Source of the DNA: an uncultured delta proteobacterium
GTDB taxonomy: Bacteria; Bdellovibrionota; FAC87; UBA2466
Length of the DNA: 64,000 nt
Direction of reading: 5' to 3'
Assembly: GCA_963778115.1 (NCBI GenBank)
Contig: CAVZSV010000001.1
Coordinates: 65,011 to 129,010 of the forward strand
Of this stretch, positions 43,474-56,466 are shown in pieces. The stretch's first letter is position 1. The number at the start of each line of letters is the position of its first letter. The notes under the pieces were generated by a model. It searched no databases. It saw nothing but the letters and a program-made list of their open reading frames with translations, and was not told the origin of the DNA. Both the position numbers and the translations under genes were made by a program.

Positions 43474-44340
43474 TCATGCGGCGGTCTTCCTCCTATGGGA
43501 TTTCGCTTCAGCTGCGGCACGATGATACTTGTGGGCAATCGCCGAAAGGTCCACGGTCGGCGAGGGTAATTTCATTTTCAGATTTTCCAGGGTGCTCGTG
43601 ATTATCTGGGAGATAGCAAGATCGCGGAACCATTTGTGGTCCGATGGGATAACGAACCATGGGGCGTGCTTGGTATTGGTCTTGTGCAATAGATCCTCAT
43701 ACGCCTTCGTATACTCATCCCAGTACTCCCGCTCTTTATAATCAGAATCACTGATTTTCCAATTTCTGGCTGGGTCATCCAATCTCTTCTTAAAGCGTGC
43801 GAGCTGTTCTTCCTTCGATATGTGTAAGAAAAACTTGAGGATGGTCGTGTTGTTTTGGATAGCAAGAAGCCTTTCGAAATCATTGATGAGATCGAAGCGC
43901 TTGGACCACTCTTTTTGAGGCACAAGTTTATGGACTCGAACGACGAGAACATCCTCATAATGGGAGCGATTAAAAATAGCAACACTGCCCTTACGAGGTG
44001 CATGGGGGTGCACCCGCCACAGGAAGTCGTGTTCCAATTCTTCCGGGCTCGGTTGTTTAAAGGACGCAACGACGCACCCTTGAGGATTCATACCCGTCAA
44101 AACGTGTCTTACGACGCCGTCCTTACCTGCCCCATCCAGTCCTTGGAGAACAATAAGAAGGGAATGTGTATTCTCGGCGTACATCAGATATTGCAGTTGA
44201 TCCATCTTCTGCAGATGTTTTTGGATCACGGGCAGTCCTTCTCTGTGGGATTCGTGCTTTCCATGACTGCTAGGACTTAAGTCTGCGAGTCTGACTTTGG
44301 CGCCTGGCTCAATGAATAGTTTCTCTCGATAGTTCTCCAT
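43474..44340 (-). CDS. ppk2: Polyphosphate kinase 2 (PPK2) family polyphosphate:nucleotide phosphotransferase
   Basis: Walker A LLIVLQGLDGAGKDG, the lid/Walker B region, and conserved ...RVHPHAP...NRSHYEDVLVVRVH. Confidence 0.85.
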   Translation of the reverse strand: MENYREKLFIEPGAKVRLADLSPSSHGKHESHREGLPVIQKHLQKMDQLQYLMYAENTHSLLIVLQGLDGAGKDGVVRHVLTGMNPQGCVVASFKQPSPEELEHDFLWRVHPHAPRKGSVAIFNRSHYEDVLVVRVHKLVPQKEWSKRFDLINDFERLLAIQNNTTILKFFLHISKEEQLARFKKRLDDPARNWKISDSDYKEREYWDEYTKAYEDLLHKTNTKHAPWFVIPSDHKWFRDLAISQIITSTLENLKMKLPSPTVDLSAIAHKYHRAAAEAKSHRRKTAA

Positions 44341-44374
44341 ATTCCTCTCCCATTATTCTTGCAAAAACCAGGGA

Positions 44375-46888
44375 CTAAGAGGCTTCTCTCGTGGGCAGAG
44401 AGCCTTTAACAGTTTGAAGTAATTTTGAAGCCGGTGCCGAAACTTTGTTGGCTTGACCCGAATCCAGTATTCGATACGCGAGAAGCTTCAATCGGTCGTT
44501 TAGAAGCGCCCATGTTGCGGCATAAGCCCACACGAAAAACGCCCATCCCCATCCTAAGGGCGTCATAAACAGACCGTACACCGCAATCAACGTTGCTACG
44601 GTTTGTGTGCCTAGCACTGCTACCCACAAGATTCGGGCGGGACGAATAGACCAGAACGGTCCACGCGTCCTGGTCAGGAATATCGTCATATGTCCTGCGA
44701 CAGACAGTTTGAGGTACATTAGAGTTTGAATGTGATCGCGATCAAGATGAAAGACCCGCTCGCCAAGGTAGAAGAGAATGAATGCCGCTAAGACACCAAG
44801 GATGCCGAGCACAGTGGATATTCCGAGCACCAGGCGCATGTTCCACGCCTCCGGGGAATTCTTGTAATGAACTCTATCGTAAGCAATGGACAGAATAGCT
44901 CCGTCATTAAGTAAGGCCAACATGACGATCATGACTGCGGTCACTGGATAGAAGTTAAATACCAGGATCGAAAGAGTCATGAATAAGAGTACTCGCAAGG
45001 TCTCAGCGATTCGGTAAATCGCATAACTGTTCATCCGCTGAAAAATTTTACGACTCTCCTTTATAGCCGTGACTATTACGGATAGTCCCGGCGTCATGAG
45101 AACGATCGATGCCGCGGCACGAGCTGCATCCGTCGCATCCGAAACCGCGATACCGCAGTCGGCCTTCTTGAGAGCGGGAGCATCATTAACCCCATCGCCG
45201 GTCATGCCCACGATGTGGCCGCGTTTCTGGAGAACATCTACAATGTGAAACTTATGCTCCGGAAATACCTGCGCGAAACCATCCGATTTCTCAATGGAGT
45301 CTGCGAGCTCTTTAGTCTCCTCGTGCTTACTATCGGCAAACCCGCTGGCATTCAGGATATTGGTGCCCAGTCCCAACTTCTTGGCCGTTTCCCGAGCGAT
45401 TGCCATCTGGTCGCCCGTTACCATCTTGATGTTGACTCCCATCTGTCTGGCAGTGGTAATGGTCGCCTTGGCGTCTTCTCTTGGGGGATCGAAGAGCGGC
45501 AATACCCCTAAAAACTGCCACGCACCGTCGGCGCTTGTCCGAGCTACTCCAAGCGAGCGAAAACCGCGTGCGGCAAATTCATTCACGGCCTTTTCGACGT
45601 CTGCTTGGATCTTTCCGGCGTTTGCCGACAATTGCAGGACTACTTGGGGTGCTCCTTTTGTCGTCTTAAACTCTTTTCCGTCCGTTCCCTTCACCGTGGC
45701 TTCCGTACGCTTATGCACTGGATCGAACGGGAGGAAGTGAATCACCTGATAGCCCTTGAGTGCGGATTCGCTTTTCAGGCCCTTCAGAACGGCCAGGTCG
45801 ATAGTGTCTTTATCGTCCGCTCGTGACGCCAGAGCCGCACTTAGAATAAGATCATCCAACGTCGTTCCATTTACGGCGAATGGATCACCCAAGGTCAGTT
45901 TGTTCTGGGTCAAGGTGCCGGTCTTATCCGCGCACAGAACATCCACTCCTGCTAATTCCTCGATAGCGGTGAGGCGCGTCACAATCGCCTGCTCCTTGGC
46001 CAGAATTCGAGCCCCCACCGCCATCGTCACTGAAAGCACTGTGGGCATCGCTACGGGAATAGCGGCTACCGTCAACACTAGAGCAAACTGCAATGTGGTG
46101 AGAATCGGATCTCCCCTGAAGACAGCGATCGTAATAATCATCGCCACCAAAATAACGGCGAACACGATCAGATAATTACCAATCTTCAAAACGGCCTTCT
46201 GGAAATGACTGACGGTTCGTGCTTCGGCTACGAGTTCCGCGGTCTTTCCGAAAAAGGTGTTCTGACCCGTGGCATAGACGAGCGCATCTATTTCACCTTG
46301 GCGGACAACGGAACCGGAAAAGATCGCTTCCCCGGGCTTGCGCGTTGCAGGCAATGATTCACCGGTTAGCGTCGACTCATCCACTTCTATCGGGTCACCT
46401 GCAAGTAGACGCGCGTCCGCCGGTACAATGTCCCCCAATCGCACACGAATGACATCGCCCGGAACTAGATCACGCGCTGGCGCCGAGATCCACTGATTGT
46501 CGCGTCTCACCCGAGCGTTAATGGCAAGCTTTGCTTTAAGGGCCTCGATGGCGTTACCCGCCTGGCGTTCCTCCCAGAATCCCACGATGGCGTTGGAAAG
46601 TAACAATACGAGAATGATCAAGAAATCGGGCCAGTGGCGAGCTACCGCGGAAAGAATTACGGCCGCCTCGATCATCCACGGAATCGGTCCCCAAAAGTAG
46701 CTCAGAAACTTTAGAAATAGGTTCGTCTTCTTCTCTTCAATTGCGTTGGGACCATATTGGAGGAGCCGCTTCCGCGCCTCAGCTAGGCTGAGGCCGTCCG
46801 GCGATGCTCCTAACTTTTTTTCAAGTTCCGGTAGAGGCAATGATTTTAGATCGGCGTGGCCATGTGACTTAACCGTATTAGACATCAT
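44375..46888 (-). CDS. P-type ATPase, P3A (plasma-membrane H+-ATPase-like) subfamily
   Basis: Phosphorylation motif CADKTGTLT, plus TGES and MVTGDQ, and hinge GDGVNDAPALKKAD. The N-terminus (GPNAIEEKK..FLKFLSYFWGPIPWMIEAAVI) closely parallels plant/fungal AHA/PMA1 H+-ATPases. Confidence 0.9.
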   Translation of the reverse strand: MMSNTVKSHGHADLKSLPLPELEKKLGASPDGLSLAEARKRLLQYGPNAIEEKKTNLFLKFLSYFWGPIPWMIEAAVILSAVARHWPDFLIILVLLLSNAIVGFWEERQAGNAIEALKAKLAINARVRRDNQWISAPARDLVPGDVIRVRLGDIVPADARLLAGDPIEVDESTLTGESLPATRKPGEAIFSGSVVRQGEIDALVYATGQNTFFGKTAELVAEARTVSHFQKAVLKIGNYLIVFAVILVAMIITIAVFRGDPILTTLQFALVLTVAAIPVAMPTVLSVTMAVGARILAKEQAIVTRLTAIEELAGVDVLCADKTGTLTQNKLTLGDPFAVNGTTLDDLILSAALASRADDKDTIDLAVLKGLKSESALKGYQVIHFLPFDPVHKRTEATVKGTDGKEFKTTKGAPQVVLQLSANAGKIQADVEKAVNEFAARGFRSLGVARTSADGAWQFLGVLPLFDPPREDAKATITTARQMGVNIKMVTGDQMAIARETAKKLGLGTNILNASGFADSKHEETKELADSIEKSDGFAQVFPEHKFHIVDVLQKRGHIVGMTGDGVNDAPALKKADCGIAVSDATDAARAAASIVLMTPGLSVIVTAIKESRKIFQRMNSYAIYRIAETLRVLLFMTLSILVFNFYPVTAVMIVMLALLNDGAILSIAYDRVHYKNSPEAWNMRLVLGISTVLGILGVLAAFILFYLGERVFHLDRDHIQTLMYLKLSVAGHMTIFLTRTRGPFWSIRPARILWVAVLGTQTVATLIAVYGLFMTPLGWGWAFFVWAYAATWALLNDRLKLLAYRILDSGQANKVSAPASKLLQTVKGSLPTREAS

Positions 46889-47163: not shown

Positions 47164-47568
47164 GTGGATATGACTATTGGCAAACTGGCGGAGGCAGCGG
47201 GGGTCGGCGTGGAGACCATCCGTTTTTATGAGCGAAAAGGTCTCATCAAAAAGCCGCAGCGCAAAGACGGCGGATTTCGTTACTACTCAGACGAGGAAGC
47301 ATCAAGAGTACGGTTTGTAAAACGGGCCCAGGAGTTGGGGTTCACGCTACGCGAAGTGAAAGATCTCCTGGACCTTCAATCCAAGCGCAAGGTGACCGGC
47401 TCGCAGGTCCAAAAGAGGGCTCAAGAGAAAATAACCGAGATCCATAAAAAGATTTCTGACTTGAAACAAATGGAAGCGTCACTCCAGCGCCTTGCCGAAG
47501 TCTGCGGAGATGGCGAACAAGCCATCCGAGAATGCAAAATTTTCGACTGTTTTGGAAAAGGTTGCTGA
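47164..47568 (+). CDS. MerR-family metal(loid)-responsive regulator with a C-terminal Cys cluster
   Basis: MerR HTH (IGKLAEAAGVGVETIRFYERKGLI...ELGFTLREV), a coiled coil, then C-x8-C...C-x5-C. Confidence 0.85.
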   Translation: MDMTIGKLAEAAGVGVETIRFYERKGLIKKPQRKDGGFRYYSDEEASRVRFVKRAQELGFTLREVKDLLDLQSKRKVTGSQVQKRAQEKITEIHKKISDLKQMEASLQRLAEVCGDGEQAIRECKIFDCFGKGC

Positions 47569-47582
47569 AGAAAGGATTAATT

Positions 47583-48023
47583 ATGAGACCTCACTTATCA
47601 ATGAATGTGAAAAGCCTCGAAAAGTCGGTCGACTTTTACCGGACGGTATTTGGAGTTGAGCCCCAAAAGCGATCCTCTACCTACGCAAAATTTGACCTCA
47701 ATGACCCCCTTTTTAATTTCACCATGCACGAAGTTTCTGAAGGAAGAGATGCGAGTCGGGTCAATCATCTAGGTATCGAAGTCGGAAGCGTTGAAGAGGT
47801 ATTAGCCTGGAAGAAACGGCTTGAAACGAAGAAAATACAAACTTTGTCCGAGGAGAACGCCGAATGTTGTTTTGCGAAGCAGGATAAATTTTGGTTCCAA
47901 GACCCTGACGGTAATTCCTGGGAAGTCTTTTTTGTTCACGAGCAGCTGCCCGTTGAAGGAGCGGAACCCCCAAGAACAGTATCGAAAGCGGGAGCCTGTT
48001 CTACCGCCTCCAAGTGTTGTTAG
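47583..48023 (+). CDS. VOC/glyoxalase-fold protein of the ArsI/CadI family. The ORF opens at 47532
   Basis: VOC fold with a vicinal Cys pair (ENAECCF), as in ArsI C-As lyases and CadI, plus a C-terminal Cys-rich tail (ACSTASKCC). It lies in an ars operon context. Confidence 0.65.
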   Translation: MRPHLSMNVKSLEKSVDFYRTVFGVEPQKRSSTYAKFDLNDPLFNFTMHEVSEGRDASRVNHLGIEVGSVEEVLAWKKRLETKKIQTLSEENAECCFAKQDKFWFQDPDGNSWEVFFVHEQLPVEGAEPPRTVSKAGACSTASKCC

Positions 48024-48032
48024 TACCCATAG

Positions 48033-49088
48033 ATGAATCTCGTTAAAAAGAAACTGTCATTTCTCGACCGCTATCTGACTCTATGGGTTTTCCTGGCAAT
48101 GGGATTAGGACTCCTTCTAAGTATCCGGGCACCCGGGCTCACTAACGCCCTTACCAGAATGAGTTATGGAACTACGTCCTTACCCATCGCCATCGGTCTT
48201 ATTTTGATGATGTATCCGCCCTTAGCAAAGGTGCGGTTCGAAGAACTTCCGCCGGTTTTTCGAAATCGAAGAGTTTTGCTTCTGTCCTTAGTTCAAAACT
48301 GGATTTTGGGACCGCTTTTAATGTTTGTTCTCGCGGTTATTTTCCTAAGGGATCGGCCGGAATATATGGCAGGGCTCATATTGATTGGGCTCGCCAGGTG
48401 CATTGCCATGGTCATCGTCTGGAACGAGCTTGCCGAAGGAAGCACTGAGTATTGCGCGGGGCTTGTCGCCTTCAATTCTATTTTTCAGATCCTCTTTTTC
48501 CCACTTTACGCCTATGTCTTTCTAACGGTACTTCCCAATGTTCTTGGGATTCAATCTTTGAAATTAGATGTCTCTATTGGAGAAATAGCGAGGTCCGTAG
48601 GAGCCTATCTGGGCATACCATTTTTGGCGGGGTTTCTGACACGCTTTATTCTACGGCCCCGAAAGGGAGCTGATTGGTATGACAAGAGTTTCGTGCCGTT
48701 TATCAGTCCAATCACGCTTGTAGCGCTCCTTTTTACAATCGCCGTGATGTTTTCCCTTAAAGGAAATCAGGTCGTTGAACTCCCGATGGAGACGTTGAGA
48801 ATCGCGCTGCCGATGGCGATCTATTTCATCGTGATGTTTTTCCTGTCTTTTGCCTTGAGCGAAAAGGCGGGCGCCAGTTATCCACAGGCTACCAGTCTTT
48901 CTTTCACCGCAGCCTCAAACAATTTTGAGTTGGCCATTGCCGTCGCGATTTCTACCTTTGGGCTCCATAGTGGGGTTTCCTTTGCGACCGTAATCGGTCC
49001 CCTTGTTGAGGTGCCCGTGCTGATTTCACTCGTTCGGGCCGCTTTTTGGTTTAAGAAACGCTGGCCTCTGAAGGCAGAAATGAGGTGA
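48033..49088 (+). CDS. acr3: Arsenite efflux permease, ACR3 family
   Basis: The 10-TM bile/arsenite/riboflavin transporter fold with ACR3 signatures ([43 protein letters not shown]). Confidence 0.9.
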
Positions 49089-49092
49089 TGAA

Positions 49093-49560
49093 ATGAATAT
49101 CCTATTTATGTGTGTTGCCAATTCAGCTCGCAGCCAAATGGCCGAAGGGTTAGCCAAAAAAATATTTGATTCTTCAGTTCGGGTTGAAAGCGCCGGTTCG
49201 AATCCAAGCAAGGTCAATCCATTTGCGATTAAGGTAATGGAAGAAGTCGGGGTGGACTTAACTCAACACTATTCCAAATCCTACGATGAGCTGGAGCCGG
49301 CATTCATCGTCAAACTCGATTATGTCATCACCCTTTGTGCCGAGGAAGTGTGTCCTCAAATGGTATCTCGGGCAAAAAAAATCAACTGGCCTCTCTCTGA
49401 TCCTGCTAACAAAGCGGAAAATGACGAAATTCAATTGGCGACCTTTAGGGAAACTCGTAACTCACTCCTTTCTCGCCTTAGGGATTTCGCGAAGCAAAAT
49501 GGGATTAAATGGAAAAGCGGCGAAAGCGCGACCCACTGTTCTCTATCTCGACCGTCATAG
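49093..49560 (+). CDS. arsC: Arsenate reductase ArsC (LMW phosphotyrosine-phosphatase family)
   Basis: ILFMCVANSARSQMAEG is the CX5R P-loop of the LMW-PTP. It is the last gene of the ars operon. Confidence 0.75.
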   Translation: MNILFMCVANSARSQMAEGLAKKIFDSSVRVESAGSNPSKVNPFAIKVMEEVGVDLTQHYSKSYDELEPAFIVKLDYVITLCAEEVCPQMVSRAKKINWPLSDPANKAENDEIQLATFRETRNSLLSRLRDFAKQNGIKWKSGESATHCSLSRPS

Positions 49561-49587
49561 AGTCCGGCAATTTCTGCTGCGAGGATC

Positions 49588-49867
49588 GGTGTTTGAGTGT
49601 GTAGCGATTTTGGATTTGGTAAGGACGATGGAATTGGTGGAAGAAGGTATCGATGATTTGGAAATTGAGTTGGAGCATTTGGGGAAGATGTTGTCGGTGT
49701 TGATTCGATTTATTGAGACTAATCCGAGGAAATAAGAGTCCGATGGCGGGACGCAAATTTGATGGAACCTAGGTTGAGAGGGTTTGGAATTTTCGCAACA
49801 TTAACCGGCTACGCCGGTCTGGAGGTTAAGATTAAACTTAAGGGTAACCTTAATAGTTATGGCGGGG
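49588..49867 (+). repeat. 280-bp direct repeat, copy B. It contains a 5'-truncated copy of the four-helix-bundle gene 3' end (a gene fragment) and the 17-bp core at 49859-49875
   Basis: Near-identical to copy A. The ORF-track ORF 49286-49735 is a read-through artefact fusing the arsC antisense/out-of-frame region to this fragment. Confidence 0.85.
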
Positions 49868-49993
49868 CGGACGGGATTCTTTAGGACGATTTTGCAACGC
49901 GTTGGATCGTAACGATTATTAATAATCACAAAAGCTTACTCGTAAATTCGACATGACCGAAAGCGCACCAAACTGCCACTACTTGCCATTCCT

Positions 49994-50013
49994 GTCCCAC
50001 AGCCGTCCCACAC
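49994..50013. promoter_or_regulatory. CCTGTCCCACAGCCGTCCCACAC. GTCCCACA direct repeat, boundary element copy B
   Basis: Same architecture and offset from the core as copy A. It lies 57 bp upstream of the xis-like gene. Confidence 0.5.
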
Positions 50014-50069
50014 TTGAACCGTACGAACCGACCTTAACGAACACTTAGGCACACAATGAAGGAGGTACT

Positions 50070-50303
50070 ATGACTGACAAAAATGAGCCCGAGCAGATGG
50101 CTGCAGAAAATGACTATCGATTAGTTTGGACGTTTGATGATGTTGCCCGTGAGCTTCAGTGCTCTAAACGCCTGGTTGAAAAGCTTGTGCAAAAAGATCG
50201 TATTCCCCATGCAAAGGTGGGACGGCTTGTTCGGTTCAGTCCAGCCAGAATTAAAGAATGGATAGAGAAAGAGGGACGAGATGAATGCCTTATGCACCAT
50301 TGA
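50070..50303 (+). CDS. Excisionase/AlpA-family HTH DNA-binding protein
   Basis: 77 aa, ...FDDVARELQCSKRLVEKLVQKDRIPHAKVGRLVRFSPARIKEWIE matches the Xis/MerR-like winged-HTH 'excisionase family' pattern. Confidence 0.6.
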   Translation: MTDKNEPEQMAAENDYRLVWTFDDVARELQCSKRLVEKLVQKDRIPHAKVGRLVRFSPARIKEWIEKEGRDECLMHH

Positions 50304-50763
50304 TAGCGGCAGTAATTCCATCGAACGTAAAAGAGAGAGCCCATTTCGCTTTGGCGGCGAGAATAATCTGTGGCGAAGTACAGTCCTTATTGATCTTAAC
50401 GGCAATTATCTTTTTTCCCAATTCAATCGCCTTTTCAATTTCCCATTTCACCCATTCGCTGGCGTAAGTAGTGCCTCCAATTAGACAGAGAAAATGAGTC
50501 GCACCCGAGATCTTTGCGGAAATGGCTCGCTTAATAACCGCGGCATTAGTACTGTCGATAGAAATATCGGCCGATTGATCGCTCATTCCAAAGTCGAAAT
50601 CTCCATTCTTGTCCCAAGCAAGTAGCAGGTTTTTATAATGTTTGTCGTTATCAAAATCATAGCTGATAAAAATTCTTGTTTTTGCCACTCTTGCAACCCT
50701 CCCAAAAAGTTCTTTATTGTGGTGAGTCGTGATAAATATGTAAAGGAATTTCTCCCGGGTCAT
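50290..50763 (-). CDS. TIR-like protein of the ThsB/DUF1863 type
   Basis: RIFISYDFDND...W opening, with CLIGGTTYASEWVKWEIEKAIELGKKIIAVKIN. This closely parallels Bacillus ThsB (CVLIGSQTFNRRWVRYEIMKSIEKGNKIIGIHIN). Confidence 0.7.
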   Translation of the reverse strand: MTREKFLYIFITTHHNKELFGRVARVAKTRIFISYDFDNDKHYKNLLLAWDKNGDFDFGMSDQSADISIDSTNAAVIKRAISAKISGATHFLCLIGGTTYASEWVKWEIEKAIELGKKIIAVKINKDCTSPQIILAAKAKWALSFTFDGITAAINGA

Positions 50764-50862
50764 GGCGCTGCGCTCCAGGAATGGAAGAGGGACTTCGGGA
50801 TAACACTTTCCGTGGAAGAGAATGGGGGCTACGCGTTGAACAAGCCGCTTTGCTTCGTGCTA

Positions 50863-52197
50863 ATGCCATTTGGGGAAAAAGTGGACACGACAGGCACTAA
50901 AGTCGATTTCGATCGGGTTTATCAAGAGGTAATCGCGCCGGCGATTTCCGAATCAGGTATGGAGTGTATCCGTGCTGATGAAGAACAGGTCGGGGGCATC
51001 ATTCATAAACCAATGTTTGAGCGCTTAGTTCTTTGCGAATATGCCGTTGTTGATTTAACGACCGCCAACGCTAACGTGTTTTACGAACTAGGCGTTCGGC
51101 ACGCGGTTCGTCCTTGGAGCACGGTGCTGTTGTTTTCAGCTCCAACTCGATTACCTTTCGATGTTGCTCCCCTGCGCGCGATGCCATATAAGTTGCAAAA
51201 AAATGGCCACCCTGCTGAAGTTACTAAAACGAGGGCGTCCCTTGTAAAACGACTAAATACGGCACGAGCGGCAGCGAAAGATAAGCCCGCTCACGACAGT
51301 CCCGTTTTTCAGCTGCTCGATGGATTCCCCGAGATCGACCATACTAAGACCGATGTGTTTAGAGACCGAGTGAAATACTCGGAGGGAATAAAGCAGAGTC
51401 TCGCTGAAGCCAGGAAAAAAGGGCTCGACGCAGTAAAGGCGGTTGAAACCACTCTTGGCGACATTGCGACTCAAGATATTGGTGTAGCCGTGGACCTATT
51501 TCTTTCTTATCGTGCCGTTAGCGCCTGGAAAGATATGGTCGATCTGGTTGGGAAAATGGCGCAACCGCTTGCTGCGACGGTGATGATTCAAGAACAACTT
51601 GCTTTCGCTTTGAATCGTCTCCGAAAGAGTGATGAGGCGGAAGTCGTCTTGGTGAATTTGCTAAAGACCAGAGGAAAGAGTAGCGAGACGCTAGGGATTT
51701 TAGGACGCGTTTACAAAGATCGGTGGCTGGAAGCAGAAAAGTCCGGAGAGCAAAAGGTCGCTCAAGGTTGGCTCGAAAAGGCTATTGAGACTTACCTTCG
51801 CGGCTTTGAGGCCGATTGGCGTGATGCCTATCCGGGAATCAATGCGGTTACATTAATGGAAGTAAGGACCCCACCCGATCCTAGACGAAAAAAGCTGATT
51901 CCCGTTGTGATGTACTCAGTTGAACAACGCCTCGATCGTGATGAGCCGGACTATTGGGACCACGCCACACTTCTTGAAATCTCCGTACTAGGTCGAGACG
52001 AAATCACTGGCAAGGAGGCGCTAAACAATGCCCTTATCTCTATGCGAGAGGCATGGGAGGGCACGTCAACGGCTGGAAATTTGCTCATAATCCGAAAAGT
52101 AAGGGAGACGCGCAATGAGACCTTCAATTGGGCCATGGAAGCTGAGCAAGCCATTACGGAGCGGGTGCGAGTCATATCGCAGGCTGCAAAAAACTGA
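50863..52197 (+). CDS. Two-domain protein with an N-terminal nucleoside-2-deoxyribosyltransferase-like (TIR/SLOG-related Rossmannoid) domain and a C-terminal alpha-helical TPR-like domain. The ORF opens at 50638, with the likely start at MPFGEK
   Basis: FVLMPFG...VDFDRVY...ADLTTANANVFYELGVRHAV resembles the NDT-family catalytic-Glu motif (D..(S)GT.FElG). The remaining ~300 aa are helical-repeat. It lies divergent to the ThsB-like gene. Confidence 0.45.
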   Translation: MPFGEKVDTTGTKVDFDRVYQEVIAPAISESGMECIRADEEQVGGIIHKPMFERLVLCEYAVVDLTTANANVFYELGVRHAVRPWSTVLLFSAPTRLPFDVAPLRAMPYKLQKNGHPAEVTKTRASLVKRLNTARAAAKDKPAHDSPVFQLLDGFPEIDHTKTDVFRDRVKYSEGIKQSLAEARKKGLDAVKAVETTLGDIATQDIGVAVDLFLSYRAVSAWKDMVDLVGKMAQPLAATVMIQEQLAFALNRLRKSDEAEVVLVNLLKTRGKSSETLGILGRVYKDRWLEAEKSGEQKVAQGWLEKAIETYLRGFEADWRDAYPGINAVTLMEVRTPPDPRRKKLIPVVMYSVEQRLDRDEPDYWDHATLLEISVLGRDEITGKEALNNALISMREAWEGTSTAGNLLIIRKVRETRNETFNWAMEAEQAITERVRVISQAAKN

Positions 52198-52232
52198 TAT
52201 AGATCCTGCTTTCCGGCTCACTACCTTTTGGT

Positions 52233-52982
52233 TCAAGACCCTTTCGGTGAGTCTAGATGCCGCAATAATTCAATTGCGGCCTTAAGCGGATCTTTGGGCA
52301 GCTTAGGAAATAATCTACTTGCTTCTCCTCCGAAGTCATTCGGAATAGGCGAATCATGTCGATGAGCTTCACTAATCGCAATAGCATGATTCATCTCTAG
52401 CGGTATAAACACTACCTTCTTATTCGCATCTATCGCGCCTTTAATTTCATCGGCAGCCACGCGTCCACCTCCGATTCCAATAAACACGTCACCGGTCTCA
52501 ATAATCACACCAGATGTAGGAGATAATCGCTGTTTTTGAGGATCGATCCCCCCCCAGAGACTATCTTCGATAATGAAAACTTTGTCGACTGACCTACAGG
52601 ATTGTATTCCCTTCTCCTTGGCTATCGAGGAGATAATTCCGACTGTTGTAAAACCTAATTCTTTCGCGATCGGGTATATCTCTCCAATACCGTCGCAGCT
52701 GGCCCCAATTGTGATAACCACTTTCCGTGGATTCAACTCCTTTAGAATCGTTCTTGCGTACCGTTTCATGGTCATTGGATTCTCGTAACCGAGGGAAGAG
52801 AACCCTAAGAAGGTCACACTTTTTTTACCGGCTGATTGGTAGTATTTTTTGATCGGCTCGCTGGGATTTGATCCTTCCAGTTCGCTCATGACGGTGACCG
52901 TATATATCGAACAGCTAAGTATTACTAGCAGGGTTAAGCGGTCTGGAAGCGAACGCCAAGACTTCCATTTCTCCATCGACAT
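52233..52982 (-). CDS. Membrane-anchored SLOG/LOG-family Rossmann-fold protein (TM-SLOG)
   Basis: N-terminal TM helix (LTLLVILSCSIYTVTVM). The Rossmann core with G-rich loops (VVITIGASCDGIGE...VFIGIGGGRVAADEIKGA) is reminiscent of the LOG/SLOG PGGxGTxxE motif. It is the last gene of the TIR operon. Confidence 0.5.
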   Translation of the reverse strand: MSMEKWKSWRSLPDRLTLLVILSCSIYTVTVMSELEGSNPSEPIKKYYQSAGKKSVTFLGFSSLGYENPMTMKRYARTILKELNPRKVVITIGASCDGIGEIYPIAKELGFTTVGIISSIAKEKGIQSCRSVDKVFIIEDSLWGGIDPQKQRLSPTSGVIIETGDVFIGIGGGRVAADEIKGAIDANKKVVFIPLEMNHAIAISEAHRHDSPIPNDFGGEASRLFPKLPKDPLKAAIELLRHLDSPKGS

Positions 52983-53009
52983 AATCCTTTTTGCTCTATG
53001 CTCTACCGC

Positions 53010-53567
53010 CTAAGAAACGTTTCTACTCATTTTCTCTCGACTGTTTATTATTTTGCTTTTGTCGGAACTCTTACGAATCGCTTCTTCGATCGCCGTTTTG
53101 ATGACAGCGGGATCGGAAGTCCAATCAATATGGTGAATGTATCCCGATACAATGTTCTCGTGCAAGCGATCGGCTACAATTGCAGAATTGTTCTCACCTC
53201 TCGTAACCGAGGGTAAAATAATGCCGAGTACTGCGTGTTCAAGGTGGAGCGTTGAGTAAATTTCCCAGTCCACATACTTTCTCTTCCAGGTTTCTGCCCC
53301 GCACAAAACTACGGTAACAGATGAGCCTTTAATGAACTCTTCGCGTATTCGACGATTAACGTATTCCGTATCGTTACTACGAATACTGCCATCGACAGAC
53401 TGGTCATAGAACACCTCATAGTTGGACGAAAAAAGTTTCTTGAATTGTTCAAACCAGGTCCAGTCGTTTGCGTGGTGGAAGCTAATAAATACCTTGCGTT
53501 TGGTCTGTTGGTTCAATATCCCGGAAAGACCTGCGAACCTGGTCGCAAAGCGATTGTCAGAACTCAT
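53010..53567 (-). CDS. TIR-like protein of the ThsB/DUF1863 type
   Basis: KVFISFHHANDWTWF...TVVLCGAETWKRKYVDWEI is the same signature as ThsB. Confidence 0.7.
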   Translation of the reverse strand: MSSDNRFATRFAGLSGILNQQTKRKVFISFHHANDWTWFEQFKKLFSSNYEVFYDQSVDGSIRSNDTEYVNRRIREEFIKGSSVTVVLCGAETWKRKYVDWEIYSTLHLEHAVLGIILPSVTRGENNSAIVADRLHENIVSGYIHHIDWTSDPAVIKTAIEEAIRKSSDKSKIINSREKMSRNVS

Positions 53568-53576
53568 ATTAGTCCC

Positions 53577-54116
53577 TTACAGCTTTAACCAATTCTTCAA
53601 TAGCGTCACGCTCCTCGTTCCGCTGGGTTCCGGATCTACTACCCACTGCTTCCCCGAATATCCAGTTACCCTAATAAATCGAATTACCGGGTACAGCCCT
53701 AGATACTCTCTTCTCGCCCACGCCTCTTCAGTAGAAGAGCGCCCCATGGGAAGCAACGCCACATTCCCAACTCCTTTGTGCCCATCACCCATTCCCAGCT
53801 CCCACGGGATCCACCCCGACCTGGAGCTATTCTCAGACATCATTATAACGAGACGGCCAGAACGACGTAACTCGCTACGAAGGATTTCCGCTGTCTCGGC
53901 GGACGGGTTCTCTGGCAGGCGCTTATCGCCGTTATCGGCATAAACAACGCCTCCGTGCTCTCGAAGAAAATCGCTTACGCCCCTTACATATAAGTCATCT
54001 TTGGATGAATGGGAGAGGAAAATTTTTTGCCCTCTTCCTTCCGCGAGCCTTTGATCGTTGGTGAGTGCCTCAGACTTACGAATCTTGTTAATGTCGTCGA
54101 AGGTAATATAAGCCAT
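53577..54116 (-). CDS. TIR domain protein (TIR_2 type)
   Basis: KIFLSHSSKD (box 1), ...LVIMMSENSSRSGWIPWELG (the SxWC/EL box), and a conserved Glu. Confidence 0.75.
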   Translation of the reverse strand: MAYITFDDINKIRKSEALTNDQRLAEGRGQKIFLSHSSKDDLYVRGVSDFLREHGGVVYADNGDKRLPENPSAETAEILRSELRRSGRLVIMMSENSSRSGWIPWELGMGDGHKGVGNVALLPMGRSSTEEAWARREYLGLYPVIRFIRVTGYSGKQWVVDPEPSGTRSVTLLKNWLKL

Positions 54117-54124
54117 AGTAATTT

Positions 54125-55024
54125 TTACTCACCCCTACGGGCCATCCACATAGTGTGTTCTCTGGAAATCGCGTTTTCTGTATTCTTCACAAAGACCCCC
54201 AAATCATTGTCGCTATTCACAGAGTTTGAATCAACCTCAACCAAGCTTAGTTCCTGAGCCGTCAGCGCGTAGACTTGAGCGAGCTCCTGAAATTTGCGTA
54301 TTTGCATCCAAGAAAATAGTGCTATGGCTAACGCCGAAAAGAAACCAGTCATATTGCGGCTTTCCGGTTCCTTAATTAAATAGAGAGCCCATAAAAATCC
54401 AATTAGCTGGGTTGCAATAGCACAACGAAAAAATGTCGTTTCCTTTGACCTATTGAACTCCGCCTTGCCTGCATACCAGTTTTTTTGGTCCATCAAACGA
54501 AATTTCAAGTATATTGTTTTCCGCTCATTCGTGGTGGAAGCCCTTATCTTTCGCATTAGGTCGGTGATTTGTGGACCTTGATTCGTTGATGTTTGAAAAT
54601 CGAACGCAAGATATTGCCTTTCGGTGAGAAATTCCGAAAGAGCGCTGGCAAACTTCCGATCAGCATCGCCAGATGCGAGTTGAGTCGGATAAGGATCAGC
54701 GCCCATCATATATTTCCAGGAAAGGCTTTTCACCGATTCTGCGACTGCACGCGCACCGTACCAAGTTTTCTCATAGCGAGTAAATTTGAGCGCTAGAGAA
54801 ACAAGGAAGGCCAAGAGAAATAGGAAGGCACCCGCAATCGCAAACCAAGACTTACCCTCATGCTGAAGGGAGCTAAAGGAAGATAGCAAGACTCCTAATA
54901 GAACCAGGATAAGATCTGCTTTCACCAAACGAGCATACATTCCCTGCGCCTTGAGTGAGGCATTGTTTGCAATATGCCAGAGGACCGGCAGGTCCCTATC
55001 CTGCAGACTAGTTGTCATGAGCAT
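54125..55024 (-). CDS. 4-TM membrane protein, a candidate SLATT-like pore/effector domain protein
   Basis: Two TM hairpins (LILVLLGVLLSSF/WFAIAGAFLFLLAFLVSLAL and FFRCAIATQLIGFLWALYLI/FFSALAIALFSWMQI) are separated by soluble helical segments. It is tightly linked (8-9 nt spacers) upstream of the TIR genes. Confidence 0.4.
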   Translation of the reverse strand: MLMTTSLQDRDLPVLWHIANNASLKAQGMYARLVKADLILVLLGVLLSSFSSLQHEGKSWFAIAGAFLFLLAFLVSLALKFTRYEKTWYGARAVAESVKSLSWKYMMGADPYPTQLASGDADRKFASALSEFLTERQYLAFDFQTSTNQGPQITDLMRKIRASTTNERKTIYLKFRLMDQKNWYAGKAEFNRSKETTFFRCAIATQLIGFLWALYLIKEPESRNMTGFFSALAIALFSWMQIRKFQELAQVYALTAQELSLVEVDSNSVNSDNDLGVFVKNTENAISREHTMWMARRGE

Positions 55025-55046
55025 CCTACTCCTCGTTGAATCGCGA

Positions 55047-55328
55047 TTAAGCTACCTTTCGAGGTACGAGTCTGATCTCATAGCCAAGAACGCGCAGTAC
55101 GTTTAGTAATATATCAAACGTGATCTTGGCAGTACCAATGCCCGATTCGATCTGGGCTATCCTTCCTTGGCTGACTCCAAGCTTTTTGGCTAATGCGGCC
55201 TGAGATAATTTTCGTTCCTGGCGCGCCTCAGAAATTAGCTCGATCAACTTCTGCTTCTCTCGCACTTCCGCTGGGTTTACTCCGAGCGATTTCGCCAATT
55301 TCTCAAAATTTGTTTCTTTCCAAGCCAT
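55047..55328 (-). CDS. higA: XRE-family HTH antitoxin (HigA-like)
   Basis: LSQAALAKKLGVSQGRIAQIESG is an XRE HTH. It lies 2 nt downstream of the toxin gene. Confidence 0.8.
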   Translation of the reverse strand: MAWKETNFEKLAKSLGVNPAEVREKQKLIELISEARQERKLSQAALAKKLGVSQGRIAQIESGIGTAKITFDILLNVLRVLGYEIRLVPRKVA

Positions 55329-55329
55329 C

Positions 55330-55662
55330 TCAAATCTCCTTAAGTCTTCTCAGAATCAATTCTACGTCTTCCTTGGGAATCGCTTGGGTCTTCTTCTTCA
55401 TCGCATGAACCATGTAGATCGCGTCACTCTTCTTGATGAAGTAGAAAAACCTCACTTGCCCACCTCGATCCTTGAATCTCAATTCATGGAGACCGTGATG
55501 GATGCCCGATAAATTCCGACTGACGGGCATTGAGAGCACTTTGCCCTGTTCCAGGAGCGAGATCGCATCCAAGAACTCACCTTGGACCTCTTCCGAGCAC
55601 TCGTGAAGAAACGTTTCCACCGGGCTACGACCTGATGATGTTTCATAGAAGCGTATCTTCAC
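55330..55662 (-). CDS. higB: RelE/ParE-superfamily toxin of the HigB type
   Basis: 110 aa with toxin upstream of antitoxin, which is the HigBA gene order. ...LHELRFKDRGGQVRFFYFI...IYMVHAMKKK matches the HigB/gp49-like pattern. Confidence 0.7.
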   Translation of the reverse strand: MKIRFYETSSGRSPVETFLHECSEEVQGEFLDAISLLEQGKVLSMPVSRNLSGIHHGLHELRFKDRGGQVRFFYFIKKSDAIYMVHAMKKKTQAIPKEDVELILRRLKEI

Positions 55663-55782
55663 TTTTCCTATTATAAGCTATAACTAATAATTAGTTCAAG
55701 CTAATACTCAAAACAACGACAACGGGTACGAGTCGAGGACTCGTCCGTTTCTGATTTAACTTATTGATATCATTGAGAAAAA

Positions 55783-55799
55783 ATGGCGGGGCGGACGGG
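55783..55799. repeat. Third copy of the 17-bp core ATGGCGGGGCGGACGGG
   Basis: Exact match to the terminal 17 bp of repeats A and B. It is followed by ~200 bp homologous to the post-core segments of A and B. Confidence 0.8.
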
Positions 55800-55872
55800 A
55801 CTCGGACGGCGGAGATTTTTAACGCATTGAGTTAATTCAAATAACAAAAACTAACAACGAGTTACTTGTTAG

Positions 55873-55996
55873 TGTGTCCCGCACAGAAACGCACCAATTA
55901 GCCCCTTTTACCCCTATCCTGTCCCACAAACGTCCCACAAAAAAGCGAGTGGGACGGGTACGAGCGTAGGCGGAGTTTGGCGTGGGACGGTTTCGT
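55873..55996. repeat. ~125-bp repeat, copy C, containing GTCCCACAAACGTCCCACAAAAAAGCGAGTGGGAC (55921-55955)
   Basis: About 90% identical to 63474-63598. Homologous to the motif regions of A and B. Confidence 0.8.
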
Positions 55997-56022
55997 CCCC
56001 TGATGGGGGCAATCTCCCGTGA

Positions 56023-56466
56023 TCAAAGGGGGCAATGGGAGGCGAAATCAAACCACAGGCCTTTGAATTGTTCGATAAACTTCTTCAGGTTGTCGATTCC
56101 GTCCGGTTTTTTGAAATAGAAGCTGGCGCCGTTGGCGTAAAACTCACAAACGTCTTTTTCTAACTCTCCGCTCGAAAACGCACAGACGGGAATTCTCTTG
56201 AAAGCGGGATCAGCTTTTAATTCCCTAAGCACCTCTTGCCCGGATTTTCCGGGCATCCGAACGTCGAGCAGAATGACTTGAGGTTTGGCTTCGGGGGAAG
56301 ACCTGAGTAGCTTGAGGGCTTCGTCTCCACTTTTGGCCGTGGTAACCCGCAGGCCTGAATCCACCATTTTGATGACGGATTTCATTAGCTGAAGTTGATC
56401 CAATGCATCGTCCACGATCATCACGTGCGGTCTCATGCTGCTTTTCCTCCAATACTTTTGGGACAT
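56023..56466 (-). CDS. Single-domain response regulator (receiver)
   Basis: HVMIVDD, then VILLDVRMP (Asp), then a K at KKPDGIDNL. It overlaps the histidine kinase gene end. Confidence 0.85.
   Translation of the reverse strand: MSQKYWRKSSMRPHVMIVDDALDQLQLMKSVIKMVDSGLRVTTAKSGDEALKLLRSSPEAKPQVILLDVRMPGKSGQEVLRELKADPAFKRIPVCAFSSGELEKDVCEFYANGASFYFKKPDGIDNLKKFIEQFKGLWFDFASHCPL

What the first reader, a model, noticed from the sequence alone, without database searches (positions are those of the whole stretch)
50290..52197. Divergent pair: a ThsB-like TIR and a protein with a nucleoside-deoxyribosyltransferase-like domain plus a TPR-like domain, adjacent to the TIR operon
50290-50763 (-) has a ThsB-like core, CLIGGTTYASEWVKWEIEKAIELGKKIIAVKIN, almost collinear with Bacillus ThsB. 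Divergently transcribed from it, 50863-52197 (+) combines an N-terminal flavodoxin-like domain carrying an NDT-type motif (ADLTTANANVFYELGVRHAV, the family that includes TIR, SLOG and nucleoside 2-deoxyribosyltransferases, which are frequently nucleotide- or NAD-processing in conflict systems) with a ~300-aa helical-repeat domain. This could be a second signal-generating or signal-degrading arm (sensor, modifier or anti-signal), or an independent two-gene system. Either way, the island contains five Rossmannoid nucleotide-signalling domains within 5 kb.
Basis: partly seen in the sequence, partly recalled or inferred. Interest (0 to 1): 0.7.

Follow-up and report, generated by a model that had tools for sequence, protein, structure and literature searches.

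The report
Thoeris TIR plus cADPR-type effector pair
The two genes are a bacterial anti-virus module of a recently described kind (a TIR signal-making enzyme next to a "ThsI"-type effector that joins a nucleotide-cleaving domain to a signal-sensing helical-repeat domain), so the sequence observation is correct but the system is not new.

Summary
The TIR gene is 50290-50688 (-), 132 aa with a GTG start. The second gene is 50836-52197 (+), 453 aa with a TTG start.

This architecture is the "CMP hydrolase and TPR" effector ThsI of type VIII Thoeris (Yirmiya et al., bioRxiv Dec 2025). It is also the BcTpr partner of BcTir (Liu et al., bioRxiv 2023), and was predicted by Burroughs & Aravind in 2020.

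The TIR is 51-55% identical to Bacillus type VII Thoeris TIRs, which are SLATT-associated; type VII signals through canonical cADPR. Its best solved-structure match is BcTir (8FZ9).

The neighbouring operon (SLATT, two TIRs, a weak SLOG-like protein) supplies a ThsH-like SLATT effector. The same parts recur together in unrelated contigs and on an enterobacterial plasmid.

Verdict: a new member of a known kind, namely a composite type VII/VIII-like Thoeris island. Interest is modest.

The parts
50290..50688 (-). thsB-like TIR gene (TIR-1), 132 aa, GTG start. The open frame extends upstream to ATG 50763.
   Evidence: PF08937 at E 5.5e-19. Nearly all of the 120 best homologues are 130-133 aa, at 63-71% identity. 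WxxWEI is invariant, Glu83. 51-55% identical to Bacillus type VII Thoeris TIR domains. The best PDB match is BcTir 8FZ9, E 7e-7.
50689..50835 (.). 147-bp divergent intergenic region, presumed to hold both promoters
   Evidence: Follows from the revised starts. No consensus sigma-70 site scored above shuffles, and there is no notable repeat. The promoter role is inferred.
50836..52197 (+). thsI-like effector gene, 453 aa, TTG start: an NDT/MilB-like N-glycosidase domain plus a TPR-S sensor domain
   Evidence: PF13281 at 4.4e-43 and PF20308 at 6.3e-27. More than 7,900 homologues at 60-65% identity across phyla. 27% identity, E 1e-25, to the TPR-S protein that sits next to type VIII-type TIRs on a Citrobacter plasmid. 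The full model matches ASK1 8QGY and 5ULM.
50836..51285 (+). N-terminal NDT / CMP-hydrolase-like domain (aa 1-150). Predicted active-site residues are Asn78, Asn80 and Glu84, in NANVFYELG.
51526..51858 (+). Core of the TPR-S (Tetratricopeptide Repeats-Sensor) domain. The helical region runs from about 51360 to 52197.
   Evidence: PF20308 covers residues 297-407 of the 519-aa ORF. ASK1 central regulatory region 5ULM matches at E 4e-5 for the single sequence and 4.3e-12 for the profile. The secondary structure is all-helical from residue ~179 of the 461-aa model.
52233..52982 (-). 249-aa protein, weakly SLOG-like, with an N-terminal hydrophobic segment. Last gene of the neighbouring operon, convergent with thsI-like.
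   Evidence: PF18306 LDcluster4 at E 8.5e-4, below the cut-off. No homologue in any of the 160+ fetched loci.
53010..53567 (-). TIR-2 (185 aa), ThsB-type
   Evidence: PF08937 at 2.2e-22. Closest to type VI Thoeris TIRs (35-40% identity, E 5e-21). Its best homologues sit between an NDT-TPR-S gene and a TIR132 gene in L107 and L117.
53577..54116 (-). TIR-3 (179 aa)
   Evidence: PADLOC ThsB PDLC00436 at 1.1e-48. Closest to P. aeruginosa type III Thoeris TIR1 (35% identity, E 6e-22) and a type IX TIR.
54125..55024 (-). SLATT membrane protein (299 aa), ThsH-like (type VII Thoeris effector architecture)
   Evidence: PF18184 SLATT_3 at 1.1e-36 plus PF18181 SLATT_1 at 1.1e-30. Strong homologues (E ~1e-50 to 1e-56) lie directly upstream of TIR132 genes. 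In L117, L131, L159 and L161 an NDT-TPR-S gene is present as well.
55047..55662 (-). XRE-family HTH (55047-55328) and Gp49/HigB-like (55330-55662) pair at the head of the minus-strand operon. This is context and a possible regulator.
   Evidence: PF01381 at 3.1e-15 and PF05973 at 8.1e-21. Gaps of 1-27 nt run through to the SLOG-like gene.

Best explanation
The pair is a Thoeris-type anti-phage signalling module.

The 132-aa TIR protein (ThsB-like) is predicted to detect phage infection. It would then convert NAD+ into an ADP-ribose-derived messenger, most probably canonical cADPR.

The 453-aa protein is a ThsI-type effector. Its C-terminal TPR-S domain binds the messenger. This switches on the N-terminal MilB/DNPH1-like N-glycosidase domain (Glu84 as nucleophile, with Asn78 and Asn80). 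That domain then destroys an essential nucleotide or NAD+ pool and stops the infected cell from supporting the phage.

The SLATT protein in the neighbouring operon is a second, membrane-disrupting effector (ThsH-like) that reads the same messenger. The island 50290-55024 therefore works as a composite type VII + type VIII-like Thoeris, with two further TIRs and a weak SLOG-like protein.

What is shown here: the domain identities, the conserved catalytic residues, homology to TIRs of validated systems, and recurrence of the gene set.

What is inferred from the literature: the identity of the signal, which protein binds it, the substrate, and the defence phenotype.
For: Architecture:
- NDT/MilB fold plus TPR-S. 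This equals the 'CMP hydrolase and TPR' ThsI of type VIII Thoeris. That system defends E. coli and becomes toxic when cADPR is supplied. The authors equate its TPR with the Burroughs-Aravind TPR.
- The same architecture is BcTpr, where N82A and E86A abolish defence. The window has the same NxNxxxE motif, and it is invariant.

TIR-1:
- It is 51-55% identical (E 1e-42) to Bacillus type VII TIRs, including the B. licheniformis SCCB 37 system, which defends and is triggered specifically by cADPR.
- Its top PDB match is BcTir 8FZ9.
- The catalytic-position Glu is invariant.

Proxy for a validated effector:
- The two TIRs of a Citrobacter IncF plasmid are 56-61% identical to the two validated type VIII TIRs.
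- That plasmid's adjacent TPR-S protein aligns with the window protein at E 1e-25. A SLATT_3+SLATT_1 gene follows on the plasmid.

Co-occurrence:
- TIR frequency falls with distance from the core gene: 12.2% at +-1 ORF, 10.2% at +-2, 2.1% at >=5.
- 28 of 74 loci have a TIR within two genes.
- In L061 the homologues of TIR-2 and TIR-1 (58% identity) lie in tandem directly upstream of the core gene.
- From the TIR-1 side (74 loci, median only 4 kb), SLATT is directly upstream in 37, NDT-TPR-S is present in 16, and both are present in 8.

Published precedent:
- ThsH and ThsI in one TIR operon is a published, rare configuration, explained by the shared cADPR signal.
Against: - The TIR and the effector are divergently transcribed, not co-operonic as in the validated systems and in most loci seen here.
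- In the closest subfamily (60-65% identity), 42 of 74 loci show no TIR within about 8 kb. The effector may therefore not need this TIR.
- The commonest partner of the TIR-1 clade is SLATT, not ThsI.
- The window protein is only 27% identical to the proxy for validated ThsI. No validated ThsI or BcTpr sequence was available for direct comparison.
- Both key papers are preprints, and they disagree on which protein makes the signal.
- Nothing about the signal, the substrate or the phenotype can be tested in silico.
Confidence: 0.75

Rival explanations
1. These are two independent modules that are neighbours by accident. TIR-1 is the ThsB of the SLATT (type VII) system and has been separated from it by the insertion of the plus-strand gene. 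The NDT-TPR-S protein is a self-contained, single-gene sensor-effector that does not depend on any of the local TIRs.
For: SLATT is directly upstream of TIR-1 homologues in 37 of 74 loci, while NDT-TPR-S is adjacent in only 11. 42 of 74 loci of the closest core subfamily have no TIR in the fetched flanks. Liu et al. also count 29 of 78 'Tpr alone' loci. The two genes are divergent, and the core gene is the only plus-strand gene between minus-strand Thoeris genes.
Against: All three components co-occur in at least 8 metagenome contigs, in L061 and on the Citrobacter plasmid. ThsH and ThsI are reported to read the same messenger. BcTpr alone did not protect without BcTir.
Confidence: 0.15
2. BcTir/Tpr-type mechanism. 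The NDT-like domain of the 453-aa protein is itself the NADase. It makes a cADPR isomer, binds it, and then depletes NAD+. The TIR protein is a non-enzymatic partner that forms a complex with it and regulates it.
For: Liu et al. report that BcTpr, not BcTir, consumes NAD+ and yields a cADPR isomer. They report that N82A and E86A abolish this, and that BcTir binds BcTpr. The window protein conserves the same residues. TIR-1's best PDB match is BcTir.
Against: TIR-1 and its whole family keep the catalytic-position Glu. BcTir itself keeps it too, as WVPHEV. Yirmiya et al. detect phage-dependent cADPR from the TIRs expressed alone, and cADPR added from outside is enough to trigger type VIII toxicity. 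The BcTir/Tpr work is an unreviewed preprint with several speculative steps.
Confidence: 0.1
3. Signal-degrading or housekeeping role. In one version, the N-glycosidase domain cleaves the TIR product to terminate or buffer signalling from the neighbouring TIR operon. In the other, the protein is a non-defence, ASK1-like stress-signalling scaffold.
For: An N-glycosidase could in principle open the N1-ribosyl bond of cADPR. The family is unusually conserved for a defence gene, at 60-65% identity across phyla, and is often found without a TIR. It is homologous to the regulatory N-terminus of ASK1.
Against: cADPR makes cells expressing type VIII Thoeris stop growing, which is effector behaviour and not sink behaviour. 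Neighbours are typical conflict-system parts: patatin, CHAT, S8 peptidase and TIR fused to TPR-S, SLATT, nSTAND1, pYEATS. Many copies are on plasmids. ASK1 has lost the catalytic Glu (YHLG), whereas the bacterial proteins keep it.
Confidence: 0.05

Closest known systems
Type VIII Thoeris (ThsB + ThsI, 'CMP hydrolase and TPR'); Yirmiya et al., bioRxiv 10.64898/2025.12.03.692087
   Same: The effector architecture is the same: a MilB/CMP-hydrolase-like N-terminal domain plus the Burroughs-Aravind TPR (TPR-S). A small ThsB-type TIR gene is adjacent. The window protein is homologous (E 1e-25) to the effector encoded next to TIRs that are 56-61% identical to the validated type VIII TIRs.
   Different: The TIR is transcribed divergently rather than in one operon. 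It belongs to the clade that normally accompanies SLATT (type VII). The effector belongs to a separate ~445-aa subfamily, about 27% identical, found mostly in Acidobacteriota, Nitrospirota and other environmental phyla. This subfamily matches the whole ASK1-type PF13281 model. No experimental data exist for it.
BcTir/Tpr system of Bacillus cereus; Liu et al., bioRxiv 10.1101/2023.05.26.542521
   Same: It is a two-gene TIR + (MilB-like glycosidase - TPR) system. The catalytic Asn and Glu have identical spacing (NxNxxxE). The window TIR's best solved-structure match is BcTir 8FZ9.
   Different: Firmicutes-type proteins are about 410-420 aa and only about 30-38% identical in the N-terminal domain. 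They are co-directional operons (L081). The BcTpr sequence itself was not available for a direct alignment.
Type VII Thoeris (ThsB + SLATT effector ThsH)
   Same: TIR-1 is 51-55% identical to Bacillus type VII TIRs. A 299-aa SLATT_3+SLATT_1 protein is encoded 3.4 kb away. SLATT followed by TIR132 is the commonest arrangement of TIR-1 homologues.
   Different: In the window the SLATT gene is followed by two other TIRs (type III/IX-like and type VI-like), not by TIR-1. TIR-1 lies beyond the inserted effector gene.
TPR-S conflict systems predicted by Burroughs & Aravind 2020 (J Bacteriol 202:e00365-20)
   Same: A TPR-S sensor scaffold is fused to an effector domain and associated with TIR, SLOG, patatin, caspase-like and membrane proteins. 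All of these associations were re-found here. The link to the ASK signalosome was also re-found.
   Different: I could not read that paper, as it is not held. The comparison rests on how later papers describe it.
MilB / DNPH1 (Rcl) / nucleoside 2-deoxyribosyltransferase superfamily
Human ASK1 (MAP3K5) N-terminal thioredoxin-binding domain + central regulatory TPR region
   Same: PF13281 matches at E 4.4e-43. Foldseek aligns 460 columns to 8QGY (E 4.9e-9) and gives TM 0.55 to 5ULM. The LSYR, NR and GRxYKD motifs are shared.
   Different: The window protein has no kinase, PH or SAM domains. ASK1 appears to have lost the catalytic Glu, reading YHLG (on a weak N-terminal segment).

Membership tests
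Type VIII Thoeris (ThsB + ThsI) | Effector with an N-terminal CMP-hydrolase / NDT-fold domain | tested here: met
Type VIII Thoeris (ThsB + ThsI) | Effector C-terminal TPR domain of the Burroughs-Aravind (TPR-S) type | tested here: met
   PF20308 TPR-S at E 6.3e-27 and PF13281 at E 4.4e-43.
Type VIII Thoeris (ThsB + ThsI) | Sequence homology of the effector to ThsI of validated systems | tested here: inconclusive
   No validated ThsI sequence was available. As a proxy, the effector next to TIRs 56-61% identical to the validated type VIII TIRs (Citrobacter plasmid L083) aligns at 27% identity, E 1e-25, over both domains.
Type VIII Thoeris (ThsB + ThsI) | A TIR (ThsB) gene in the same operon as the effector | tested here: inconclusive
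   The TIR is adjacent, 147 bp away, but divergently transcribed. In related loci the TIR is usually co-directional.
Type VIII Thoeris (ThsB + ThsI) | Canonical cADPR made by the TIR on infection, activating the effector; anti-phage protection | not testable with these tools
   Only homology is available. TIR-1 is 51-55% identical to type VII TIRs of the cADPR-signalling group and 36% identical to a type VIII TIR.
Type VII Thoeris (ThsB + ThsH SLATT) | SLATT-domain membrane effector next to a TIR gene | tested here: met
   SLATT_3 at 1.1e-36 plus SLATT_1 at 1.1e-30, at 54125-55024. TIR-3 starts 8 nt downstream.
Type VII Thoeris (ThsB + ThsH SLATT) | TIR of the clade found with SLATT effectors | tested here: met
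   TIR-1 against Bacillus type VII TIRs gives E 1e-42. SLATT is directly upstream of TIR-1 homologues in 37 of 74 loci. In the window, however, TIR-1 is not the TIR adjacent to SLATT.
BcTir/Tpr system | TIR partner related to BcTir (PDB 8FZ9) | tested here: met
   8FZ9 is the best PDB sequence match of TIR-1, at E 7e-7.
BcTir/Tpr system | Tpr protein with a MilB-like N-terminal domain carrying the catalytic Asn and Glu (BcTpr N82, E86) | tested here: met
   Window N80 and E84 lie in NANVFYE, the same NxNxxxE spacing. They are invariant in 19 diverse sequences, including Firmicutes-type members.
Nucleoside 2-deoxyribosyltransferase family proper (Pfam PF05014 / PF15891) | Profile match above the family threshold | tested here: not met
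   No Pfam hit on residues 1-155, even at E <= 10. A distant plasmid homologue reaches only E 0.12. It shares the fold and the Glu but is not a member of PF05014.
Type I Thoeris (ThsA SIR2-SLOG + ThsB) | ThsA (SIR2 or TM/Macro + SLOG) effector next to ThsB | tested here: not met
   No SIR2 or Macro domain is found in 50070-55662. The only SLOG-like call is weak and stands alone.
Type III Thoeris (several TIRs + SLOG effector) | Multiple TIR genes with a SLOG-domain effector | tested here: inconclusive
   TIR-3 is 35% identical (E 6e-22) to P. aeruginosa L0872 type III TIR1. The operon ends with a protein that matches SLOG cluster 4 only at E 8.5e-4, below the cut-off. No ThsD sequence was available.

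The most novel reading that the evidence does not exclude
There are two linked ideas.

First, the ~445-aa, ASK1-like subfamily to which this effector belongs may not simply be a ThsI. It is 60-65% identical across many phyla. In more than half of the loci no TIR is in reach, and it is often paired instead with a TPR-S-patatin paralogue. It could be activated without a dedicated TIR, by a messenger made elsewhere, by a host or phage metabolite, or by direct sensing.

Second, in this island it may be one node of an integrated hub. Three TIR clades (type VII-like, VI-like, III/IX-like) would make different ADPR-derived signals and feed three different effectors: NDT-TPR-S, SLATT and the SLOG-like protein.
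Probability: 0.15. Interest if true: 0.6.

Novelty: new member of a known kind. Interest (0 to 1): 0.3.

Why it matters
The finding adds an environmental, non-model example to the newly defined cADPR-dependent Thoeris types VII and VIII.

It shows that a SLATT + TIR + NDT-TPR-S combination, called rare in the literature, recurs in metagenomes and on clinical enterobacterial plasmids.

The effector subfamily found here is the bacterial lineage closest to the regulatory N-terminus of human ASK1. Biochemistry on it could show what the ASK1 thioredoxin-binding and TPR module evolved from: ligand binding by TPR-S, and the substrate of the N-glycosidase domain.

For annotation, it corrects two start codons. 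It also replaces the uninformative label 'TRAFs-binding domain-containing protein' with a functional prediction.

Tried and rejected
- NCBIfam gave no name for the TIRs or the effector.
- Promoter and terminator scans of 49900-55800 found no more sites than shuffles did.
- No notable repeats lie in the divergent intergenic region.
- There are no Rfam matches in 49000-56500 and no tRNA genes in the window. No integration site or RNA element could therefore be tied to the island.
- Burroughs & Aravind 2020 could not be read by DOI or by a guessed PMC id.
- Searches for 'TPR-S' and 'DUF4071' found no paper on the bacterial TPR-S systems.
- A search among 240 fetched homologues for a protein with the exact BcTpr residue numbering found none. 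BcTpr was therefore compared only through its published motif.
- The organism could not be identified. The exact protein occurs on one unnamed NCBI contig of 196 kb and on one Logan contig.
- The SLOG-like protein has no homologue in any fetched locus and no convincing PDB or Pfam match.
- My first BLAST clustering of neighbours under-counted TIRs, giving 5 loci. An iterated HMM raised this to 31 loci, although it also picks up the TIR-like DUF4062.
- I considered classical type I Thoeris and a true nucleoside 2-deoxyribosyltransferase, and rejected both. See the membership tests.
Full report
**1. What is in the sequence**

One search lists a 157-aa ORF at 50290-50763 (-) and a 519-aa ORF at 50638-52197 (+).

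Twenty-one homologues of the long protein all begin MxxPLCFVLMPFG. This fixes the start at TTG 50836 (453 aa), preceded by a GGGGG run.

Nearly all of the 120 best homologues of the TIR protein are 130-133 aa, and the 132-aa query is 98-100% covered. The start is therefore GTG 50688, 9 nt after GGGAGG, and the protein has 132 aa. The two genes are divergent and separated by 147 bp.

**2. Domains**

The TIR gene:
- It matches ThsB_TIR at E 5.5e-19 and several PADLOC ThsB models.
- It aligns with Bacillus ThsB 6LHY. Its WVKWEI Glu lies under the Glu of ThsB's WVRYEI.
- That Glu (E83) is invariant in the family.

The 453-aa protein, C-terminal part:
- It matches MAP3K_TRAF_bd (PF13281, E 4.4e-43) and TPR-S (PF20308, E 6.3e-27).
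- It matches the ASK1 central regulatory region 5ULM by sequence.
- The full AF2 model (pLDDT 80) has ASK1 8QGY and 5ULM as its best Foldseek hits.

The 453-aa protein, N-terminal 150 residues:
- Pfam finds nothing on this region alone.
- A PADLOC 'Effector TIR' model hits it at E 6.4e-8.
- A profile built from close and Firmicutes-type homologues hits DNPH1/Rcl at E 0.007, with the YELG Glu aligned to Rcl's GYELG.
- Asn78, Asn80 and Glu84 are invariant.

**3. Surroundings**

Six closely spaced genes (gaps of 1-27 nt) lie downstream on the minus strand:
- a Gp49/HigB-like gene;
- an XRE HTH gene;
- a SLATT_3+SLATT_1 membrane protein (54125-55024);
- TIR-3 (53577-54116);
- TIR-2 (53010-53567);
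- a 249-aa protein whose SLOG assignment is weak (PF18306, E 8.5e-4).

An excisionase-family HTH gene (50070-50303) overlaps the 3' end of the TIR gene by 14 nt.

Upstream lies a gene cluster that looks like an arsenic-resistance set: MerR, glyoxalase, an SBF-family (ACR3-like) transporter and an LMW phosphatase (ArsC-like).

**4. The family and its neighbours**

The 453-aa protein has more than 7,900 homologues at E <= 1e-5. The best are 60-65% identical and come from Nitrospirota, Acidobacteriota, Planctomycetota and other phyla. The N-terminal domain alone finds 15,225 cluster representatives (50% identity clusters) at E <= 1e-3.

I examined 80 genome loci. Among 130 immediate neighbours, the commonest Pfam families were:

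| Pfam family | Immediate neighbours (of 130) |
|---|---|
| TPR-S | 20 |
| Patatin | 12 |
| TIR_2 | 11 |
| DUF4231/SLATT | 5 |
| ThsB_TIR | 4 |

Individual neighbours include TPR-S-patatin, TIR-TPR-S-patatin, TIR-TPR-S-subtilase, CHAT-TPR-S, SLATT, QueC, Ogg-HhH, pYEATS and nSTAND1 proteins.

With an iterated TIR HMM, a TIR(-like) protein is the nearest neighbour in 18 of 74 loci and lies within two genes in 28 of 74. Forty-two loci show none. TIR frequency decays from 12.2% at +-1 ORF to 2.1% at >=5 ORFs.

On plasmids:
- A Lactiplantibacillus record carries TIR then TPR in one operon.
- A Citrobacter IncF plasmid carries TPR-S protein, TIR, TIR and SLATT. This is the window's parts list.

**5. 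The TIR side**

Homologues of TIR-1 (63-71% identical) were followed into four contigs and 80 metagenome loci. The median locus is only 4 kb, so the counts are lower bounds. Of 74 loci with an identifiable 132-aa TIR:

| Feature | Loci (of 74) |
|---|---|
| SLATT gene directly upstream | 37 |
| SLATT gene anywhere | 47 |
| NDT-TPR-S gene (411-445 aa) present | 16 |
| NDT-TPR-S gene adjacent | 11 |
| Both SLATT and NDT-TPR-S | 8 |
| QueC/Ogg block (usually with a TGT-like gene) | 12 |

The other window components recur in the same contigs:
- TIR-2's best homologues lie between the NDT-TPR-S gene and the TIR132 gene in L107 and L117.
- TIR-3's best homologue is in L125, next to TIR, SLATT, TIR132 and NDT-TPR-S genes.
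- The window SLATT has E ~1e-50 to 1e-56 homologues in L117, L131, L159 and L161, which also carry the effector.
- In genome locus L061, homologues of TIR-2 and TIR-1 (58% identity) are in tandem directly upstream of the effector gene.

Only the SLOG-like gene has no counterpart elsewhere.

**6. What is known**

Kaur et al. 2021 cite Burroughs & Aravind 2020 for the bacterial origin of ASK-signalosome components. I could not read the 2020 paper.

Liu et al. 2023 (preprint) took a B. cereus TIR + Tpr operon from that paper:
- It defends E. coli against T-phages, and both genes are needed.
- The N-terminal domain of BcTpr is MilB-like.
- N82A and E86A abolish NAD+ depletion, cADPR-isomer formation and defence.
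- The BcTir structure is deposited as 8FZ9. 8FZ9 is the best PDB match of the window TIR.

Yirmiya et al. 2025 (preprint) define:
- type VII Thoeris: TIR + SLATT effector ThsH;
- type VIII Thoeris: TIR + ThsI, annotated 'CMP hydrolase and TPR'.

They report that both types signal through canonical cADPR and that added cADPR is toxic to cells carrying either system. They equate the ThsI TPR with the Aravind TPR. They describe rare operons with both ThsH and ThsI, islands with many ThsB genes, and Thoeris operons with Cap9/10/11 (QueC, TGT, OGG).

I compared the window TIRs with the TIR domain sequences in their Table S1:

| Window TIR | Closest TIRs in Table S1 | Identity | E-value |
|---|---|---|---|
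| TIR-1 | Bacillus type VII TIRs, including the validated B. licheniformis system | 51-55% | 1e-42 |
| TIR-1 | Yersinia type VIII TIR | 36% | 1e-17 |
| TIR-2 | type VI TIRs | 35-40% | 5e-21 |
| TIR-3 | P. aeruginosa type III TIR1 | 35% | 6e-22 |

The two TIRs of the Citrobacter plasmid are 56-61% identical to the two validated type VIII TIRs. That plasmid's TPR-S protein therefore serves as a proxy for ThsI. The window protein aligns with it at 27% identity, E 1e-25, across both domains.

**7. Mechanism**

Best-supported model, confidence about 0.75:
- TIR-1 senses infection and makes cADPR.
- TPR-S of the 453-aa protein binds cADPR.
- The MilB/DNPH1-like domain (Glu84) is switched on and degrades a nucleotide or NAD+ pool.
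- The SLATT protein is a second effector for the same signal.

Shown here are the folds, the motifs, the homology to validated TIRs, and the recurrence of the gene set. Inferred are the signal, the binding, the substrate and the phenotype.

Rivals:
- The modules are independent, with TIR-1 really belonging to SLATT and the effector being autonomous. The many TIR-less loci support this.
- The BcTir/Tpr model, in which the NDT-like domain makes the signal. The conserved TIR Glu and the Yirmiya data argue against it.
- A signal-sink or non-defence role. The cADPR-triggered toxicity and the conflict-system neighbours argue against it.

**8. Novelty and score**

The architecture, its TIR association, its defence role and even its combination with SLATT are already described. 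This is a new member of a known kind.

Features particular to this locus:
- the divergent orientation;
- a TIR of the 'SLATT clade';
- three TIR clades and up to three effectors in 4.7 kb;
- an effector subfamily that is the closest bacterial relative of the ASK1 N-terminus and is frequently found without a TIR.

Interest is 0.3.

The most novel reading not excluded is TIR-independent activation of this subfamily and/or a multi-signal hub. I give it about 0.15 probability.

Noticed in passing
window 50290-50763 and 50638-52197: Both genes are probably mis-started by simple ORF calling. The TIR is 132 aa from GTG 50688, not 157 aa; a public gene call even shortens it to 98 aa. The effector is 453 aa from TTG 50836, whereas the public call uses the 519-aa ORF from ATG 50638.
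   Followed up: yes
window 50070-50303 (+): A 77-aa excisionase-family HTH protein (PF12728 at 4e-10, TIGR01764 at 2.8e-10). It has a weak similarity to the MADS defence-system HTH MAD1. It overlaps the 3' end of the TIR gene by 14 nt in convergent orientation. It may mark a mobile-element border or act as a regulator.
   Followed up: partly
window 55047-55662 (-): A Gp49/HigB-like toxin gene and an XRE HTH gene sit immediately upstream of the SLATT gene on the same strand, with a 22-nt gap. The best sigma-70-like site of the region (10 of 12 matches, 55699-55670) lies just upstream of them. This pair may regulate the SLATT/TIR operon.
   Followed up: partly
window 52233-52982 (-): The 249-aa last gene of the TIR operon has an N-terminal hydrophobic segment and only a sub-threshold SLOG cluster 4 match. 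It has no homologue in about 165 related loci. It is the one part of the island that does not recur elsewhere.
   Followed up: partly
PDB 8QGY (human ASK1) aligned to the window protein profile: In the segment aligned to ...NANVFYELGLRHA..., ASK1 reads ...QPSLFYHLGVRES... The ASK1 thioredoxin-binding domain therefore looks like an inactivated NDT/MilB-like domain in which the nucleophile Glu is replaced by His. The N-terminal segment alone is not statistically significant. It is, however, collinear with the significant TPR match and with the 460-column Foldseek alignment.
   Followed up: partly
L003, L006, L015, L018, L028, L043, L049, L060, L061, L063, L076, L078 (genome loci): The ~445-aa NDT-TPR-S gene is very often followed by a ~870-940-aa paralogue. 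In the two checked against Pfam (L003, L006) this carries an N-terminal TPR-S and a patatin phospholipase domain. Other loci pair it with TIR-TPR-S, TIR-TPR-S-patatin, TIR-TPR-S-subtilase or CHAT-TPR-S proteins. Several effectors may thus share one sensor type.
   Followed up: partly
L085, L088, L095, L096, L098, L119, L146, L153, L156, L159, L161; also L034, L079: A block of TGT-like, Ogg-HhH, QueC and a 166-168-aa ThsB-type TIR recurs next to the SLATT/TIR132 pair. The block is Cap10/Cap11/Cap9-like. This matches the 'type IV CBASS-like' Thoeris operons mentioned by Yirmiya et al.
   Followed up: partly
L083 (Citrobacter freundii IncFIC plasmid NZ_OW969879.1) and identical hits in Klebsiella, Enterobacter, Hafnia, Raoultella, Aeromonas and Actinobacillus plasmids: An identical TPR-S + TIR + TIR + SLATT cassette, flanked by IS26 and a recombinase, is spread across many clinical and environmental enterobacterial plasmids. 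The tblastn statistics are the same in each record (27.8% identity to the window protein).
   Followed up: partly
window 47164-49560 (+): A MerR-family regulator, a glyoxalase-family protein, an SBF-family (ACR3-like) transporter and an LMW phosphatase (ArsC-like) lie directly upstream of the island. They look like an arsenic-resistance cluster. PPK2 and a P-type ATPase lie further upstream (43474-46888).
   Followed up: partly
L082 (Rhizobium etli CIAT 652 plasmid pB): The divergent neighbour of a 53%-identical NDT-TPR-S gene is annotated 'putative nucleoside 2-deoxyribosyltransferase', but Pfam sees only a PfkB-kinase-like region in it. An HhH-GPD glycosylase gene is nearby.
   Followed up: partly
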